Shown in pieces: positions 1 through 6,000 of a stretch of 64,000 nucleotides of DNA. The stretch spans positions 30,503,036 through 30,567,035 of the forward strand of contig JARFYF010000012.1 in NCBI GenBank assembly GCA_030265395.1. The letters run 5' to 3'. Positions within the stretch are counted from its first letter, which is position 1. Each line of letters opens with the position of its first letter. A program made the position numbers. The DNA comes from Rhina ancylostomus (Eukaryota).

Positions 1-3000
1 GAGGAAATATGTTATTTCAGTCAGCCAGTATTGGTGGCTGTTGAACTGTCTGCCTAGAAAGGTTGAAGGTGGCAGAAATTTTCACCACATTTAGAAAAAT
101 ATCTGGAGCAGTGCTTCAGGCCTATGGATCAAGAAATCGAAATTGTCTTCAACACAACTGTCCATTTCTGATCAGGAGGGACACAATGGGTCAAATAAAC
201 TCCTCCTATTGCTATAGTTTTAAACTTGTTCTTAAACTAGTCAACTTACAAGGGGTACGTTGAGTCACGGTAAATAACAGCTTGCTATCCAGGAAGTTTT
301 GTGAGCATTTATTTGGATCTTGGCACCAGCACCCCTCATTTATGGTGTCTTTATTCCAAGTGGGTAAGTCAGATACCGTGACAGCTTGCAAGCATTCAGG
401 TGGACAGGATACTGAATGAGGATTGAACGTTGATGAGGAATAATGCATTCAAAAGGAGAGGGGAGGAGGAAATAGAGGCAAAAGTGGAGAAGGCAGATGT
501 CACAATGTTATCTTCATTACTGAGATAGTTAAAGTACCCTCTTCAACACAACTTACAGTGAAGATAACCCAGTGCCTTTCTAGATACACACAGACCAAAG
601 TAAATAAGAGCAGAATGCCAACTGATCCCTCAGCCCCACCTCTCAATACACTGCACAGTTAAAAGTACAACATCAAAGTGTGACTTACCTTAACAGCCTG
701 TTTGCAGCATCAAATGATTTATCAATACCACATTTGGGAAATAAGAAGAAAGAAAATTAAGTGATCAGAATAGTAAACATTTTCCACAAATTCAAATAGA
801 TAACATGCATTTCTGTGCAGAAAGGAATAATCAATTTTTTTTTCCTGTTCCAAGAGAAAGGGCATCATTATAACTAAACACCATTCCCGCCAAAAGAGTC
901 CTAGAGCATTGGTTTATTACATACCTCATTGGAAAGATTAATCACTAAACAGAATAATTTACACCATTGTATGCCAAACCTTGCACTGCAATGCAATGCA
1001 AATAGGCAATAGATTAACATTTCTAATTTTGGCTAACATTTTTCTACCTTCAAAATTTGGATTCAAGTTTAAATCAAATTGAATAAATAAATGTAGATCT
1101 TTGCATGCAGGTATGTAATAAACATGTACTGGTTAGTACAACCACTAATGAACTGAAAAAGGAAATTCTCCAAGAATACAACCCTATGTGTGATCATGCG
1201 CTGGGTTTTGCCAAGCTGTTTAATGAGCAGAAATTATCACCCAATTTATAGTTCAATTATGACCCCAAAAAATGATATCCCCTCCAATGGTATTTAGGAG
1301 ACTATCTTTCTAAATAATAAAAAAAACAGCCTACACAGTCTTCACTATACTTTTGTTTAAAAACCCACAGCATTATTAGTATGTTGTGTGTTTTCATACC
1401 ATTTGTTTTAATACACAGTCTATGGTACATACCTGAGAAGAACACAAGACAGACAATCCTGCAGAATTTTTCATATCAATGGATACCATCTTTGATATTT
1501 TTCAGTGCAAGGATTAATAATGCTGTATAGTTTAAGACATCCTTGTTACACTTTTCTAATAGGCTCAATCTACCGACTGTGTAGGCTTGTATAGGAAATA
1601 CTGTCTTTATTGAATCAAAAGATTTTAATTACTGTATGCAAATGAGATTTGGGAGTAGCTTTTCATCTGCTGCAGGAAGAAAACTCTTCAAAAAAAAAAG
1701 TTGTTCACTGCAAAGGAGCAACATCTGCCAATAGCTAGCTTCCTGTGGGACTCCTAACATTATTTCAGAGGGAACTGATGCACTTCAAATGCAAATCTGG
1801 ATTAAAATTTATGAGCACAATATGCAAAACTGTGACTTGCTTTCACTAAAGTAGGATTTACACTCAAAATTAAGTAGATAGGAATTCTTACATGAGAAAC
1901 AGCATCATGAAATAATGAAAGAAAGCAAAAAACAAATACAAACCAGTAACACATTATTCTCTGCTTTACTTCTTTTCATGATGCTTAGTATTTCGTAGGG
2001 GAATATAGAGTGGCTGAATCATCAAGTACTTTGGGTTTCGAAGTTAAGGTAATGGCTCCAAAGCTAAGATGGCTCGAAAACTGATTTCCATAGAGATAGC
2101 AATCTCAGCCAAGGCTGAGATAAGAGCACAAGTGGTCCAATGAGCTGAAGTTTTGAAAATAAAAACAGGCAGTGCTGTCCCTTTCCAATAATCTGCTGGA
2201 AATGTTCTGTTGGTGCTGGACATGAACAGTATCAGGTTCAGCGATAAAATCTCCCACAGTTCCATTACTTCCAGAAATCATCACATGGTGAGAACTATAA
2301 TTTCCCTTTCCCCACTTTGGAACTGTATCCCAAACTACTGGTAACTTCAGATAAGGGGAAGGGAAAATTTCCATGTACTTAGAGTGGAAACAATGAACTG
2401 TTTGAGAGTCAAAATATAGACAGAAGTAGTAAACTTGTATCTTAAATGGAAAAAAAAAGTTATATCAAGCAATTAAAAATTAGTATTCTTAACCTGCAAG
2501 TAGTTTTCCTGACCTCTCGAGAAGAAAAAAAAAGTTGACTGTCAGATTATGTGACCAAGACCAAAACTCAGAGCAGGTACTAAGGCTAGGACACTGAAGA
2601 TTCCCAACCTGCTAAATCTTTACCAATTAAAAAAAGGTATTGTTATCTTTGGGACTCTTTAAACCATTGATTTTAGCCTTCAGAATATTAAAGTTAAATT
2701 TCTGTACAAGGAAAAATGGGGACCTCTCAAGTTTATCGCAGACACAGTATACCCGATCTTTGGACATGATTTATGGATTAGAATACTAAGTAAACATTGA
2801 CGTTACCTTGATCAAAGAAAACCTTACAAATCATTTCAATTTAGGTATTAAATATTTTCAGAGCATGTTAACTATTGGCAGACTGCTCAAGATAAAATGA
2901 GAGCAGATGGTGGTACTCCCCCTCATGTAACATACAGTGACAGAAAAAAATTCAGTACAAGCCTCCTAAACCTTGAATATTACTAACTTAGTGTTTTCCA

Positions 3001-6000
3001 TACATACATGCAGTGCTGATGTAGTAGTCATTTTGACGACTGCTTTGGTGAAACTGTCTACAAACTGAAAGTTAGAATGCATGAGTGAGTTCCACCTACA
3101 GTGCTTTGACAAGTTAATCTCCTTTACCGACATTCACTCACTTCAATGTGAGTTAACATTTTTCCCTCAAATGTCTTGGATCAGATCCATTTCATTATTT
3201 ATTTAATTTTACAGGTTATATGGCAAGTCCTAGTAAACACAGCAAAAACTGAATCTTAAATAATGGAATACCTTATGCAATCCACTGCACACAGTAAGAA
3301 ATTAAATAGCATCCAGGTCACAGTGTCAAAAACCAAACTGGGATTTGTATTTGAAGTGCTTCATGAACTGGTATTTTAAATTATCCTAAATCGGTCAACA
3401 AATTGTGACGTAACATACATTGAGCTTACCATAGCATTTTTAATGAACAGCACGTGTGCATGGATTACATAGAATTATTAAACATGAACAAATCACATCC
3501 ACTTGCATACTATTTCTTCAATGTTACATCTATTCAATTTACAAGCAGATTTCATCTTGAGTAAATTGACTTGCTGCAGAATATTCAAGTTACTACTTAG
3601 CTTTTGTGGAGAGGGAATTAGGATTTCAAGCCATTCACTTAAAAAAAAATAAAGTTTTGACTGATTCCATGTAAAAAGGATATTACCTGTGATTCCAGGA
3701 GAGGTTTCTGGCTGTCTTCTACATCAATAACACAATCACGAGCATTTGAAAGTAAAGATACTGCACAAATTAAGAAAAAAAATCTAAGATTACAGTATAT
3801 TTTAGAAAGCGGTAATGCCATCAAAATATCTAAAACATTTGCATGATGAATTTAAAACTAATCATTAAAATTTAGGAACTAATTTGCATGACTATACTTA
3901 AAAGTAGCCCATATAATTTTTAAAACACATTGGATATGATGCTTTAGAATCCAGATTTTCTATCTGCGTTGAAGCTAATTTTCAAAGGTCGAAATTCCTT
4001 TAGAAAGACATTTGGAAAATACCTTTAGACTGCATTCCAACAGTTTCTTTTTCAGCATAGGCATCAATCCGATATTCTTGCAAAGAATGAATTGTGCATT
4101 GTCCAACCACAGGTTTACGTCCAAACGGCCTGTGGTCAATTACCTTTATGACAATAGGAGGAGTGTACATTTCTTCTTTCGGAAGATACTAGAACCAAGA
4201 CCAGAAATGACGGATCATTTCAGATCCATTCACGTAAATTTTTGTTGATTAATACAATCATTTGTTACAGCATAAATTCAATCTAAGCTTTCAAGTACCA
4301 GTTCAGAAATTATGCATAATATAAATTTTCAATGGTAAACTTACTTTGCAAGATTAACTTCCTTAATCATTCAATGACATGTAAACCGCACAAGACTTGT
4401 TCAGATTGATTAAATCAATTTTACCTTTGATATCCTTCTGTAGAAATATATTTAACTTGTGGACTGGTGTCCAAAACTACCATATTTACAAGATGTGTGA
4501 CTTTAAATATTTCTCTGAAAATTGAAACAATTTGAATTCTCAAATTGCAATGAACAGTAGACTGATCAACAAAAGTTCCAACATCAGTTGGACAAAGCAT
4601 ACCTTTTGTTTTCAAAAAGAAAATCTTAGACAGTGAAATGCATTGATAATGTTAGTGATAATCATATTTTAAAAAAAAAATCAATTTTGATTTTGTTAAC
4701 TTACTTGCTAAAATATTCAAAAGCAGCAATTCTACCTCAATTGCTTTAGCTGCATCTCAAGTAGTACATTACAGAAGGCTAACAAAGCAGTCAAGGCAGG
4801 TATCCTTGCAAGGTCCAACAGGTTAATTATGCCCGAATTTTAAATAGAGTTCAGAGATTCAAGTGCAGAATACTTAGAATATACATATTAATTTTAGCAC
4901 AAATGACATGAATGGCAGTTTACAAATTACACTCCTTGATGTTGCTTTTTTTAAAAAAAATGCAGATCTGGCAGTAGAAGCACCAGGTTTAATCAATTAT
5001 ATAGTCATCCTATTACAGCTGGTACATTGAACTATAAGCAGTGGGAAATCCACTTCATTTGGAGAACTCTGGATTAATTCTACAATGATATAAAGATATT
5101 AGTGCAATTAAATATTTCACAAATTTAGCCTGATAACAACCTAAATGGTCCACTATTGCTCATTATTTCAATAAATGATCAAACAATATTAATTCAACAA
5201 TTTTAAAGTACCAATTGCACAGTATTCTTGAGATGCATAAACATACCACTTTCAAGAAGAGGACAGAGCGGGGAAAATTTGGACATTTTTTAAGGCTCTT
5301 GATCACAGCAGATTCCAAATACTTGTCACCACATTCCACAATGAGACTTGGGGAAGTAACAGCTGCCAGCTGGTAGCTCCTCATGTTCCGTAACCCCCAC
5401 GTTAGAATCTGCAACAACATTCTTGTTAAATAAATCTGCCTTACCATGATTAGTGGACTTGCTCAATCTTTAGTTTGAAGCAGATGGCTTAACCAGTTAA
5501 GTCAAGAAATAGCTTCTTAAAAAGGCACAGATTTTGTGCTGATGTCGACAGCTATAAATGTGCAAAAATGACAGCAACATCTGGGTCTGGATTTGTACAA
5601 TGCAGATCATGGTGTCACTAATAACCTGTTCCTTCATAAACTGGCAACTCCAGCCTTCTATGATGGAACATAGAAGGGGGATCACCTGAATGAGTGATTG
5701 ATAGTTATCTGCTATTCTTGTATTAGAAACGATTGAAGGAAGAAAAGGCTTGCTCATTCAGGTGTAAATGGTGAAATACATCATCATCCCTGGAAAAACT
5801 CAGTAGTCACATTCCCTAAAACTTGATTGAAAAAAATTAAAATTACATTTGTTTTACTCTTATACATTTCCTTTTAGTACCTGTCTTGCTCACATAAAAT
5901 GAACAGATTTTCCGTTTCCCCATTTAAAACCACTTCCTGCTTTGCCATCTGAATATGTTGATGAGGATTCTTCATAGTAATTGTTTTAACATCTTTTCAA

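What the first reader, a model, noticed from the sequence alone, without database searches (positions are those of the whole stretch)
500..3686. Repeat-poor 3-kb intron zone that may act as a combinatorial microexon cassette for the ferlin cleavage linker
Seen: unlike most long introns here, this stretch has no recognisable SINE or LINE, but has at least four phase 0-0 exon candidates (57, 15, 33 and 9 nt). It also carries sense-strand TGCATG (804-809, 1104-1109, 3007-3012) and TACTAAY (1132-1138, 1375-1381, 2479-2485) motifs. Inference: purifying selection on a splicing-regulatory region that could generate multiple linker variants, possibly more than are described in mammals. Motif counts were not tested against background.
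Basis: partly seen in the sequence, partly recalled or inferred. Interest (0 to 1): 0.65.

Follow-up and report, generated by a model that had tools for sequence, protein, structure and literature searches.

The report
Three optional mini-exons in myoferlin intron
This stretch is part of one intron of a cartilaginous fish's myoferlin gene and holds three small in-frame exons that gene models of related sharks and rays include in different combinations to lengthen a flexible protein loop; the repeat and motif arguments do not stand out from background.

Summary
The window carries a myoferlin gene on the minus strand. It comes from a cartilaginous fish, not a human: exon identity is 84-90% to rays and sharks and 70-75% to mammals. 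Positions 1-3686 are the 5' part of the intron after the exon ending ...KPLLESQ. The next constitutive exon (..IDWWSKF..) is not in the window, so position 500 is not a boundary.

Three phase 0-0 exons have homology support:
- A, 3008-3064, 57 nt.
- B, 1433-1489, 57 nt, one contiguous block that adds up as 15+9+33.
- C, 689-697, 9 nt.

The same inserts occur in different combinations in the named shark, ray and chimaera myoferlin models retrieved: none, C, A, A+C and A+B+C. The cassette idea is therefore supported, but the exons are already annotated elsewhere.

Stop-free AG..GT candidates are at chance frequency (150, against 138±18 in shuffles). TGCATG is not enriched (P about 0.10) and TACTAAY only weakly (P about 0.02, uncorrected). 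None of the TACTAAY sites sits at a branch-point distance from A, B or C. Repeat poverty is shared by the first 21 kb of the window.

Intron conservation and transcripts could not be tested. Interest is low to moderate.

The parts
3687..3760 (-). Constitutive myoferlin exon (74 nt) that ends ...DCVIDVEDSQKPLLESQ. It closes on a complete codon, so downstream inserts must be phase 0-0.
   Evidence: tblastn of Callorhinchus P0003 and Rhinoraja P0126; junction arithmetic places the acceptor at 3760; sequence read.
3685..3686 (-). Donor GT (CAG|gtaata) that opens the intron containing the zone.
3008..3064 (-). Exon A, 57 nt, FVDSFTKAVVKMTTTSALH. Acceptor ttctaactttcag, donor CAT|gtatgt.
   Evidence: Identity to the first 19 residues of the insert: 18/19 Narcine, 16/19 Heterodontus and Carcharodon, 13/19 Chiloscyllium. 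Best ungapped match in all six frames, with 0 of 500 shuffled queries reaching it; the frog insert gives 1 of 500. Combined splice score ranks 1 of 149 candidates.
1433..1489 (-). Exon B, 57 nt, MVSIDMKNSAGLSVLCSSQ. Weak acceptor (atatcaaag|), strong donor (CAG|gtatgt).
   Evidence: 12/19 identical to Heterodontus MVPPDMKDSAGLAAFRSSQ, with 0 of 500 shuffled queries reaching the score. Donor ranks 2 of 222 GT; acceptor ranks 157 of 207 AG. Carcharodon X2 has a 16-residue version.
689..697 (-). Exon C, a 9-nt microexon, AVK. Acceptor aaacag|, donor AAG|gtaagt.
   Evidence: It is the only one of the four 9-nt candidates that fits the x-[A/V/P]-K inserts AAK, IAK, VAK, TVK and APK of other cartilaginous fishes. 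Donor ranks 1 of 222 GT; combined score ranks 2 of 149. It lies downstream of B, as in the shark models.
700..812 (-). 113-nt AG-free zone upstream of exon C. It holds TGCTGC (704-709), a pyrimidine tract (about 737-760) and a possible distal branch site CTGAT (764-768). TGCATG 804-809 sits at its upstream end.
   Evidence: 113 nt, against a median of 34 and a maximum of 92 for 27 constitutive acceptors of the window; TGC at -12 and -9; best pyrimidine window ends at -45. Sequence read. The branch site is an inference.
3007..3012 (-). TGCATG that straddles the exon A donor (CTG CAT|G).
   Evidence: It is explained by the Leu-His codons plus the donor G.
1104..1109 (-). Intronic TGCATG, about 324 nt downstream of exon B and about 407 nt upstream of exon C.
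   Evidence: distances taken from the exon coordinates.
1132..1138 (-). TACTAAC, 435 nt upstream of exon C, so not at a branch-point distance from any supported acceptor. The same holds for 1375-1381, which lies 52 nt downstream of exon B.
   Evidence: distances taken from the exon coordinates.
2441..2485 (-). TACTAAT (2479-2485), a T-rich tract and AG (2441-2442). This is the best acceptor-like site in the zone, with no homology-supported exon behind it.
   Evidence: Acceptor score 10.7 bits, the highest in the listing; sequence read. No retrieved protein carries a matching insert.
1..688 (-). Remainder of the same intron up to the window edge. The next constitutive exon (..IDWWSKFYAS..) is absent.
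   Evidence: Sensitive tblastn of Callorhinchus residues 1241-1420 against 1-4300. Apart from the two known exons it gave only chance-level hits (E of 5 or more).

Best explanation
Positions 1-3686 are the 5' part of one myoferlin intron, on the minus strand, in a cartilaginous fish. The intron carries three small exons: A (57 nt), B (57 nt) and C (9 nt). Each is a whole number of codons, so any combination keeps the reading frame, giving up to 8 isoforms that add 0-41 residues. The residues are inserted between ...KPLLESQ and E-x-x-S-IDWWSKF. This is the ferlin region where dysferlin's alternative exon 40a supplies a calpain site. In the myoferlin cryo-EM structure it belongs to the long 'anchor loop' of C2E that reaches over to C2F.

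Shown here: the exons, their splice sites and their homology, and the fact that gene models of other species use them in different combinations.

Inferred: that they are alternatively spliced in this species, and that the inserts tune the length, flexibility or protease access of the loop arm. Also inferred is that exon C, with its TGC motifs, displaced pyrimidine tract, 113-nt AG-free zone and consensus donor, is recognised in the way known regulated microexons are.
For: Gene and lineage:
- The exon at 7371-7553 hits named myoferlins. 669 of 670 candidates have E<=0.001. Identity is 90% to Pristiophorus, 89% to Callorhinchus and 70-75% to the mammals listed.
- Pfam finds C2, FerB, FerA and FerI in window ORFs.
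- tblastn maps Callorhinchus residues 148-1273 collinearly onto 59768-3687.
- Overall tblastn identity is 84.2% to Rhinoraja, 83.0% to Hemitrygon and 67.4% to Latimeria.

Exons:
- A matches shark and ray inserts at 13-18 of 19 residues, and B matches Heterodontus at 12 of 19. For both, 0 of 500 shuffled queries reach the score.
- C fits the 3-residue inserts of 7 named cartilaginous-fish models.
- By a splice-site matrix built from 27 acceptors and 28 donors of the window's own constitutive exons, A and C rank 1 and 2 of 149 candidates. The donors of C and B rank 1 and 2 of 222 GT.

Combinations seen in 9 named cartilaginous-fish models:
- None: Callorhinchus P0002.
- C only: Callorhinchus X2, Amblyraja X2, Rhinoraja, Hemitrygon X1.
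- A only: Narcine.
- A+C: Chiloscyllium X1.
- A+B+C: Carcharodon X2, Heterodontus.

Wider conservation:
- A 19-20-residue insert sits at the same place in narwhal, goose, frog and bichir models.
- A 4-residue insert (LTEK, LVEK, QAER and similar) sits at the place of C in many bony vertebrates.

Architecture of C: the AG-free zone is 113 nt, against a maximum of 92 in 27 constitutive sites, with TGC at -12 and -9. A UGC between branch point and AG is reported in 79% and 74% of the two SRRM3/4-dependent microexon groups (bioRxiv 10.1101/2024.09.17.613571, passages).

Protein context:
[quoted passage not shown] Myoferlin is also cleaved, to a dual-C2 module (PMC4230592, passages).
- The C2E anchor loop spans residues 1395-1498, and its 1447-1498 part contacts C2F and C2G (PMC12264198, passages).
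- In turtle and python myoferlin the insertion point is after residue 1440 and DWWSK starts at 1450.
Against: - No transcript data exist for this species, so alternative use here rests only on other species' models. Those are largely automatic predictions, one or a few per species.
- B's acceptor is poor (-5.1 bits, rank 157 of 207, below all 27 constitutive sites).
- B-like sequence was found in only 2 database representatives among 4 candidates.
- C is too short for a homology statistic.
- Exon A's similarity to mammals is weak: narwhal 5/19, with 71 of 500 shuffles reaching the score.
- The splice matrix is small. Where several junction solutions fitted, a consensus score chose among them, which is slightly circular.
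- The position in the anchor loop is carried over from turtle and python numbering to the human structure without aligning the human protein.
- No calpain-site prediction was run.
Confidence: 0.7

Rival explanations
1. The whole 3-kb zone is a selectively constrained splicing-regulatory region. It is kept free of transposable elements, and Rbfox sites (TGCATG) and strong branch points (TACTAAY) drive a combinatorial choice among four or more microexons.
For: The motifs are present on the sense strand. TACTAAY is nominally enriched, 3 against 0.58 expected, P=0.021. TGCATG 804-809 lies at the upstream edge of the AG-free zone before exon C, and 1104-1109 lies between B and C. No repeat was detected in the zone.
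Against: TGCATG is not enriched (P=0.10; whole window 51 against 56.4±7.0 in shuffles). The third TGCATG is coding sequence plus the donor. None of the three TACTAAY sites lies 18-45 nt upstream of A, B or C. Repeat absence is shared by the first 21 kb of the window. At 5-6 copies per 64 kb, only about 0.3 copies are expected in 3.2-3.7 kb. One intronic ORF (2108-2464) weakly resembles a tandem-repeat protein. Separate 15-nt and 33-nt exons have no support.
Confidence: 0.15
2. Only A and C are genuine exons. B is an occasional exonisation, or a gene-model artefact copied between shark annotations, with little or no use in this species.
For: B has the worst acceptor of the three. It occurs in 2 of 9 named cartilaginous-fish models and in no bony-vertebrate model retrieved. 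The sturgeon and salmonid middle inserts show no similarity to it (sturgeon, 437 of 500 shuffles reach the score).
Against: The open frame, 12 of 19 identical residues, the exact length and the strong donor are kept between this window and Heterodontus, which share about 80% protein identity overall. An unused intronic sequence would not be expected to keep them.
Confidence: 0.12
3. A, B and C are ordinary constitutive exons in this species, so there is no combinatorial cassette here.
For: Heterodontus is represented by a single model that contains all three. No transcript evidence for skipping exists for this species.
Against: Models of other species omit one, two or all three. Callorhinchus has models with and without C. 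B's weak acceptor and C's displaced pyrimidine tract are unlike the 27 constitutive sites of the same gene.
Confidence: 0.08

Closest known systems
Annotated myoferlin isoforms of other cartilaginous fishes (Carcharodon carcharias isoform X2, Heterodontus francisci, Chiloscyllium plagiosum X1, Narcine bancroftii, and the C-only models of Amblyraja, Rhinoraja, Hemitrygon and Callorhinchus X2)
   Same: Same gene, same insertion point, same order A-B-C and the same lengths for A (19 residues) and C (3 residues). Sequence identity is 13-18 of 19 for A and 12 of 19 for B.
   Different: Carcharodon's B has 16 residues rather than 19. This window's species matches none of them exactly, with at most 84% identity overall. 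Those records are gene models, and I saw no transcript evidence for them.
The 4-residue insert (LTEK, LVEK, QAER, KAEL, LAEK...) and the 19-20-residue insert (CLSSMSTALSKMASPATVH type) of bony-vertebrate myoferlin models.
   Same: Same position, directly before E-x-E-x-VDWWSKF. Both are symmetric in-frame inserts, present in some models and absent in others.
   Different: C is 9 nt here, against 12 nt in bony vertebrates. A's similarity to tetrapod inserts is weak (frog 7/19, narwhal 5/19). The name 'exon 38a' could not be verified: 'myoferlin' with 'exon 38a' found 0 papers, and Piper et al. 2017 is not held.
Dysferlin alternative exon 40a (calpain cleavage exon)
   Same: It is an alternative exon of a paralogous ferlin in the equivalent region, between exons 40 and 41 and between the domains then named C2DE and C2E. 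Inclusion makes the protein cleavable to a dual-C2 plus TM module, and myoferlin is also cleaved to such a module (PMC4230592, passages).
   Different: It is a different gene, and I did not compare the sequences. Myoferlin cleavage looked constitutive in that study. Whether A or B carries a cleavage site is untested.
SRRM3/4-type regulated microexons
   Same: Exon C is 9 nt. It has TGC motifs just upstream of the AG, a pyrimidine tract displaced upstream, a long AG-free zone and a consensus donor (features described in bioRxiv 10.1101/2024.09.17.613571, passages).
   Different: There is no evidence on tissue pattern or on dependence on these factors. 11 of 27 constitutive acceptors of the window also have a TGC in the last 30 nt, so that feature alone is weak.

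Membership tests
Myoferlin (type-I ferlin) gene | Multiple C2 domains plus FerI, FerA and FerB motifs, in ferlin order. | tested here: met
   Pfam finds C2 (7272-7670), FerB (31402-31629), FerA (33246-33518) and FerI (56035-56298) on the minus strand. They are collinear with Callorhinchus residues 148-1273.
Myoferlin (type-I ferlin) gene | Closest named relatives are myoferlin rather than another ferlin. | tested here: met
   Most named hits among the best 120 are called myoferlin or myoferlin-like (one is named dysferlin; others carry uninformative names), and likewise. No tree against dysferlin or otoferlin was built.
Ferlin loop alternative exons (myoferlin 19-residue and 3-4-residue inserts) | Located in the intron between the ...PLLxxQ/K exon and the ..DWWSKF exon. 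| tested here: met
   The upstream exon ends at 3687. A, B and C lie downstream in that order. The downstream exon is outside the window.
Ferlin loop alternative exons (myoferlin 19-residue and 3-4-residue inserts) | Symmetric (phase 0-0), a multiple of 3 nt, stop-free, with AG and GT flanks. | tested here: met
   57, 57 and 9 nt; splice scores.
Ferlin loop alternative exons (myoferlin 19-residue and 3-4-residue inserts) | Sequence homology to annotated inserts. | tested here: met
   For A and B, 0 of 500 shuffled queries reach the observed score. C is judged by pattern only.
Ferlin loop alternative exons (myoferlin 19-residue and 3-4-residue inserts) | Variable inclusion in transcripts of the same species. 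| not testable with these tools
   No transcript data are available.
Calpain-cleavage exon (dysferlin exon 40a type) | Insert carries a calpain site and confers cleavage. | not tested
   No cleavage-site predictor is at hand, and this needs a biochemical assay.
SRRM3/4-type microexon (exon C) | Length of 27 nt or less, with a UGC between branch point and AG. | tested here: met
   9 nt; TGC at -12 and -9.
SRRM3/4-type microexon (exon C) | Inclusion depends on SRRM3/4, with a neural or endocrine pattern. | not testable with these tools
   Needs expression data or a minigene.
Rbfox-regulated exon | (U)GCAUG in the flanking introns, above background and conserved. | tested here: inconclusive
   The motifs are present but not enriched: TGCATG P=0.10; GCATG 4 against 2.67 expected. 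Conservation is not testable.

The most novel reading that the evidence does not exclude
Elasmobranch myoferlin has a three-exon symmetric cassette (A, B, C) inside the C2E anchor loop. The middle exon B is a lineage-specific addition absent from bony vertebrates. All eight combinations are used in a tissue-regulated way to set the length of the tether between the C2E body and the C2F-binding segment, and with it protease access. That would be a richer loop code than the one known in mammals.
Probability: 0.25. Interest if true: 0.4.

Novelty: new member of a known kind. Interest (0 to 1): 0.25.

Why it matters
The region varied by these exons is where ferlins are cut to release a two-C2-domain module (PMC4230592). 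In the myoferlin structure it is the loop that couples C2E to C2F (PMC12264198). The insertion point has carried a long insert, a variable middle insert and a 3-4-residue microexon since before cartilaginous and bony fishes split. That suggests loop length there is a regulated property of myoferlin. For this window the practical result is an annotation: three small exons with coordinates. A negative result also follows: the repeat and motif arguments carry no weight. The finding does not open a new question.

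Tried and rejected
- Next constitutive exon in the zone: sensitive tblastn of Callorhinchus residues 1241-1420 against 1-4300 found none.
- Separate 15-nt and 33-nt exons: none of the nine 15-nt or six 33-nt candidates matches any retrieved insert. Candidate 1400-1432 (rank 3) merely reuses the pyrimidine-rich end of exon B as its 'acceptor'.
- Inserts of other lineages: bichir A-type (247 of 500 shuffles reach the score) and the sturgeon middle insert (437 of 500) show no match in the zone. 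The salmonid inserts (VAT, VKLKKDFTVL, AYLSLPVLQ) were not scanned.
- Repeats: ARAGORN found 0 tRNA-like genes. Pfam on 115 ORFs of 75 residues or more found only ferlin domains plus four sub-threshold chance matches, and no reverse transcriptase or transposase. TRF found 4 arrays, none in the zone. Rfam found 0 matches. A relaxed BLAST of 1-3686 against the rest of the window gave only 3 hits of 18-24 nt with E of 0.19 or more.
- The 119-residue ORF at 2108-2464: the representative search gave one unnamed hit, P0227, E=8.6e-10 summed over 8 repeat units. Each unit is about 33% identical over about 50 residues. Its Pfam matches have no stretch passing on its own. I read it as a possible old repeat relic, not an exon.
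- Literature: 'myoferlin' + 'exon 38a' found 0 papers. 'myoferlin' + 'microexon' found 2 unrelated papers, seen in the listing only. 'myoferlin' + 'shark' + 'alternative splicing' found 0. The 'MYOF' + Rbfox search was swamped by 'myof...' words. Piper et al. 2017 is not held.

Full report
WHAT THE WINDOW IS

All six motif sites read as stated only on that strand.

Stop-to-stop ORFs on the minus strand show ferlin-like C2 pieces. I searched exons one at a time. The exon at 7371-7553 found 669 proteins with E<=0.001 among 670 candidates. Most named hits among the 120 best are called myoferlin. Identity was 90% to a Pristiophorus fragment, 89% to Callorhinchus and 70-75% to the mammals listed.

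Pfam finds C2 in 2 of the 5 exons I submitted. It finds C2, FerB, FerA and FerI in window ORFs. tblastn places Callorhinchus residues 148-1273 collinearly on 59768-3687.

Against nine named proteins, overall tblastn identity runs from 84.2% (Rhinoraja) and 83.0% (Hemitrygon) down to 67.4% (Latimeria). So the window is part of the myoferlin gene of a cartilaginous fish. I take no part of it for human.

Exons were searched singly, and named reference proteins were used where a long query was needed. The window has nine N runs, none inside 1-3686. I left them untouched.

THE ZONE

The exon at 3687-3760 ends ...KPLLESQ on a complete codon, followed by the donor CAG|gtaata at 3686. The next constitutive exon of every myoferlin retrieved begins E/Q-x-x-x-[IV]DWWSKF. 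A sensitive tblastn of Callorhinchus residues 1241-1420 against 1-4300 found only the two known exons and chance-level hits.

The intron therefore runs off the left end of the window. Position 500 is not a boundary, and the zone is only a partial intron.

ARE PHASE 0-0 CANDIDATES MORE THAN CHANCE?

No. The sense strand of 1-3686 holds 150 stop-free AG..GT candidates of 6-90 nt, among them 5 of 57 nt, 9 of 15 nt, 6 of 33 nt and 4 of 9 nt. The controls are:
- the antisense strand holds 152;
- 100 shuffles give 138±18;
- nine other stretches of the window give 119-218 per 3686 nt.

WHICH CANDIDATES ARE REAL

I used the Callorhinchus protein, residues 1196-1340, as query. This gave 1688 proteins with E<=0.001 among 1780 candidates, with the best 120 listed. 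It brought in full-length myoferlins of sharks, rays and many bony vertebrates.

Their sequence between ...PLLxxQ and ..DWWSKF differs by discrete inserts. The linker pattern was found in 104 of the first 120 proteins and in 105 of the next 106.

Inserts in named cartilaginous-fish models:

| Model | Insert |
|---|---|
| Callorhinchus (UniProt, P0002; P0003 the same) | none |
| Callorhinchus X2 | AAK |
| Amblyraja X2 | IAK |
| Rhinoraja | VAK |
| Hemitrygon X1 | TVK |
| Narcine | 19 residues |
| Chiloscyllium X1 | 19 residues + AAK |
| Carcharodon X2 | 19 + 16 + AAK |
| Heterodontus | 19 + 19 + APK |

The window encodes the equivalents, all on the minus strand and in this order:
- **Exon A, 3008-3064**, FVDSFTKAVVKMTTTSALH. 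It matches Narcine at 18/19, Heterodontus and Carcharodon at 16/19, and Chiloscyllium at 13/19.
- **Exon B, 1433-1489**, MVSIDMKNSAGLSVLCSSQ. It matches Heterodontus at 12/19.
- **Exon C, 689-697**, AVK.

For A and B the Heterodontus peptide finds exactly these places as the best ungapped match in all six frames. None of 500 shuffled queries reaches the score. The frog insert also lands on A (1 of 500). The narwhal insert lands there too but weakly (71 of 500).

C is too short for such a test. It is the only one of the four 9-nt candidates that fits the x-[A/V/P]-K pattern, and it lies downstream of B.

SPLICE SITES

I located 29 of 30 constitutive junctions by arithmetic on tblastn coordinates, without joining sequence. 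I dropped two doubtful ones and added the donor at 3686. From these I built matrices from 27 acceptors and 28 donors.

Among 149 candidates, A ranks first (16.3 bits) and C second (13.6 bits). C's donor AAG|gtaagt is the best of 222 GT in the zone, and B's is second. B's acceptor is poor: -5.1 bits, rank 157 of 207, below all constitutive sites. C's is modest at 1.5 bits.

The matrix is small. Where more than one junction solution fitted (8 of 30 pairs), a consensus score chose among them, which is slightly circular.

57 nt and 9 nt correspond to A and C. A separate 15-nt or 33-nt exon has no support. Exon B is one contiguous 57-nt block whose parts, MVSID + MKN + SAGLSVLCSSQ, are 15+9+33 nt. 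Carcharodon's version lacks the middle three residues. There is no GT/AG inside the block that would allow it to be split here.

MOTIFS

TGCATG is not enriched. The window holds 51, against 56.4±7.0 in shuffles. The zone holds 3 against 1.10 expected from the rest of the minus strand, P=0.10. The site at 3007-3012 is the last two codons of A (Leu-His) plus the donor G. The site at 1104-1109 lies about 324 nt downstream of B. The site at 804-809 lies 107 nt upstream of C.

TACTAAY is nominally enriched, 3 against 0.58 expected, P=0.021 uncorrected. However, 7% of sliding windows do as well, and a stretch starting near 42 kb also reaches 3 of both motifs.

None of the three TACTAAY sites lies 18-45 nt upstream of A, B or C. 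The site at 2479-2485 sits about 40 nt upstream of the best acceptor-like site of the zone (AG at 2441-2442, 10.7 bits). No retrieved protein has an insert that matches what follows it. This remains unexplained.

Upstream of exon C there is no AG for 113 nt. The 27 constitutive acceptors of this gene have a median of 34 and a maximum of 92. The pyrimidine tract is displaced, ending at -45. TGCTGC lies at -12 to -7.

Together with the consensus donor this resembles the architecture described for regulated microexons. A UGC between branch point and AG is reported in 79% and 74% of the two SRRM3/4-dependent groups (bioRxiv 10.1101/2024.09.17.613571, passages read).

The resemblance is a lead only. 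11 of 27 constitutive acceptors here also have a TGC within 30 nt.

REPEATS

Self-BLAST of the window finds one clear interspersed family of about 230 bp. Copies lie near 21352-21599, 40600-40845, 48347-48563, 62926-63319 and 63898-64000, with a fragment at 37375-37443. There are two minor pairs.

None lies in the zone, and none lies anywhere in 1-21000, which holds several other introns of 1-3 kb. With 5-6 copies per 64 kb, about 0.3 copies are expected in the zone.

ARAGORN, TRF, Rfam and a Pfam scan of 115 ORFs add nothing in the zone. The 119-residue ORF at 2108-2464 has one weak hit, to an unnamed protein made of about nine tandem units. That hints at an old repeat relic.

'Repeat-poor' is thus true as far as these crude tests go, but it is not a distinguishing property. 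It cannot be read as purifying selection.

PROTEIN CONTEXT

Redpath et al. 2014 (PMC4230592, passages read) place dysferlin's alternative exon 40a between exons 40 and 41. [quoted passage not shown] Myoferlin cleavage appeared constitutive in that study.

The 2025 cryo-EM paper (PMC12264198, passages read) describes this region as the 'anchor loop' of C2E, not as a plain linker. The loop spans residues 1395-1498 and is inserted between strands β6 and β7. Its 1447-1498 part contacts C2F and C2G.

In turtle and python myoferlin (2059 and 2062 residues) the insertion point is after residue 1440, and DWWSK starts at 1450. By inference, the inserts lengthen the arm of the loop just before the segment that binds C2F. 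I did not align the human protein.

The name 'exon 38a' could not be checked. Piper et al. 2017 is not held, and 'myoferlin' with 'exon 38a' finds no paper. My memory that such an exon is described there is recollection only.

WHAT STAYED UNCHECKED

- Conservation of the intron.
- Transcripts of any elasmobranch.
- The protein atlas (one search was closed).
- Supplementary tables of the microexon papers, which may list a MYOF microexon, were closed.
- No calpain-site prediction was made.

VERDICT

I can place three of them exactly. Related species' gene models already carry them, and the arguments from repeats and motifs do not stand. This is a new member of a known kind, and interest is low to moderate.

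Noticed in passing
window 2441-2485 (minus strand): TACTAAT, a run of T and an AG form the best acceptor-like site in the zone (10.7 bits), about 40 nt downstream of the branch-like motif. No homology-supported exon follows, and the in-frame candidates behind it have weak donors.
   Followed up: partly
window 2108-2464 (minus strand): This is the longest ORF of the zone, 119 residues. Its only hit among 1.84 billion representatives is an unnamed 539-residue protein built of about nine tandem 58-residue units (33% identity per unit). It may be a relic of an old repeat inside the 'repeat-free' zone.
   Followed up: partly
window 21352-21599, 40600-40845, 48347-48563, 62926-63319, 63898-64000, 37375-37443: One interspersed repeat family of about 230 bp, 74-86% identical between the longer copies, occurs in both orientations. 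All copies lie in introns beyond 21 kb. It was not classified: no tRNA-like head by ARAGORN and no Rfam match.
   Followed up: partly
window 43215-43250 (minus strand): A small exon-like match (DDEGTGASPSNE) to Rhinoraja residues 467-478. tblastn had missed it, and the junction arithmetic shows it as a 12-residue gap. It lies about 190 nt from the N run at 43444-43471.
   Followed up: partly
window 57766-57789 (minus strand), next to the N run 57795-57894: An exact 8-residue match (DIGYVYDE) to Rhinoraja residues 277-284 lies directly beside an assembly gap. This exon may be cut by the gap.
   Followed up: no
proteins P0225 and P0201 (sturgeons), P0041 (Lonchura), salmonid models: Some bony-vertebrate models carry a different middle insert at the same point: RDFGLKDAVT in sturgeon, a ...RDFGGDDA... 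stretch in a finch model, and VKLKKDFTVL in salmonids. A variable middle exon may therefore exist outside sharks too. No similarity to exon B was detectable.
   Followed up: partly
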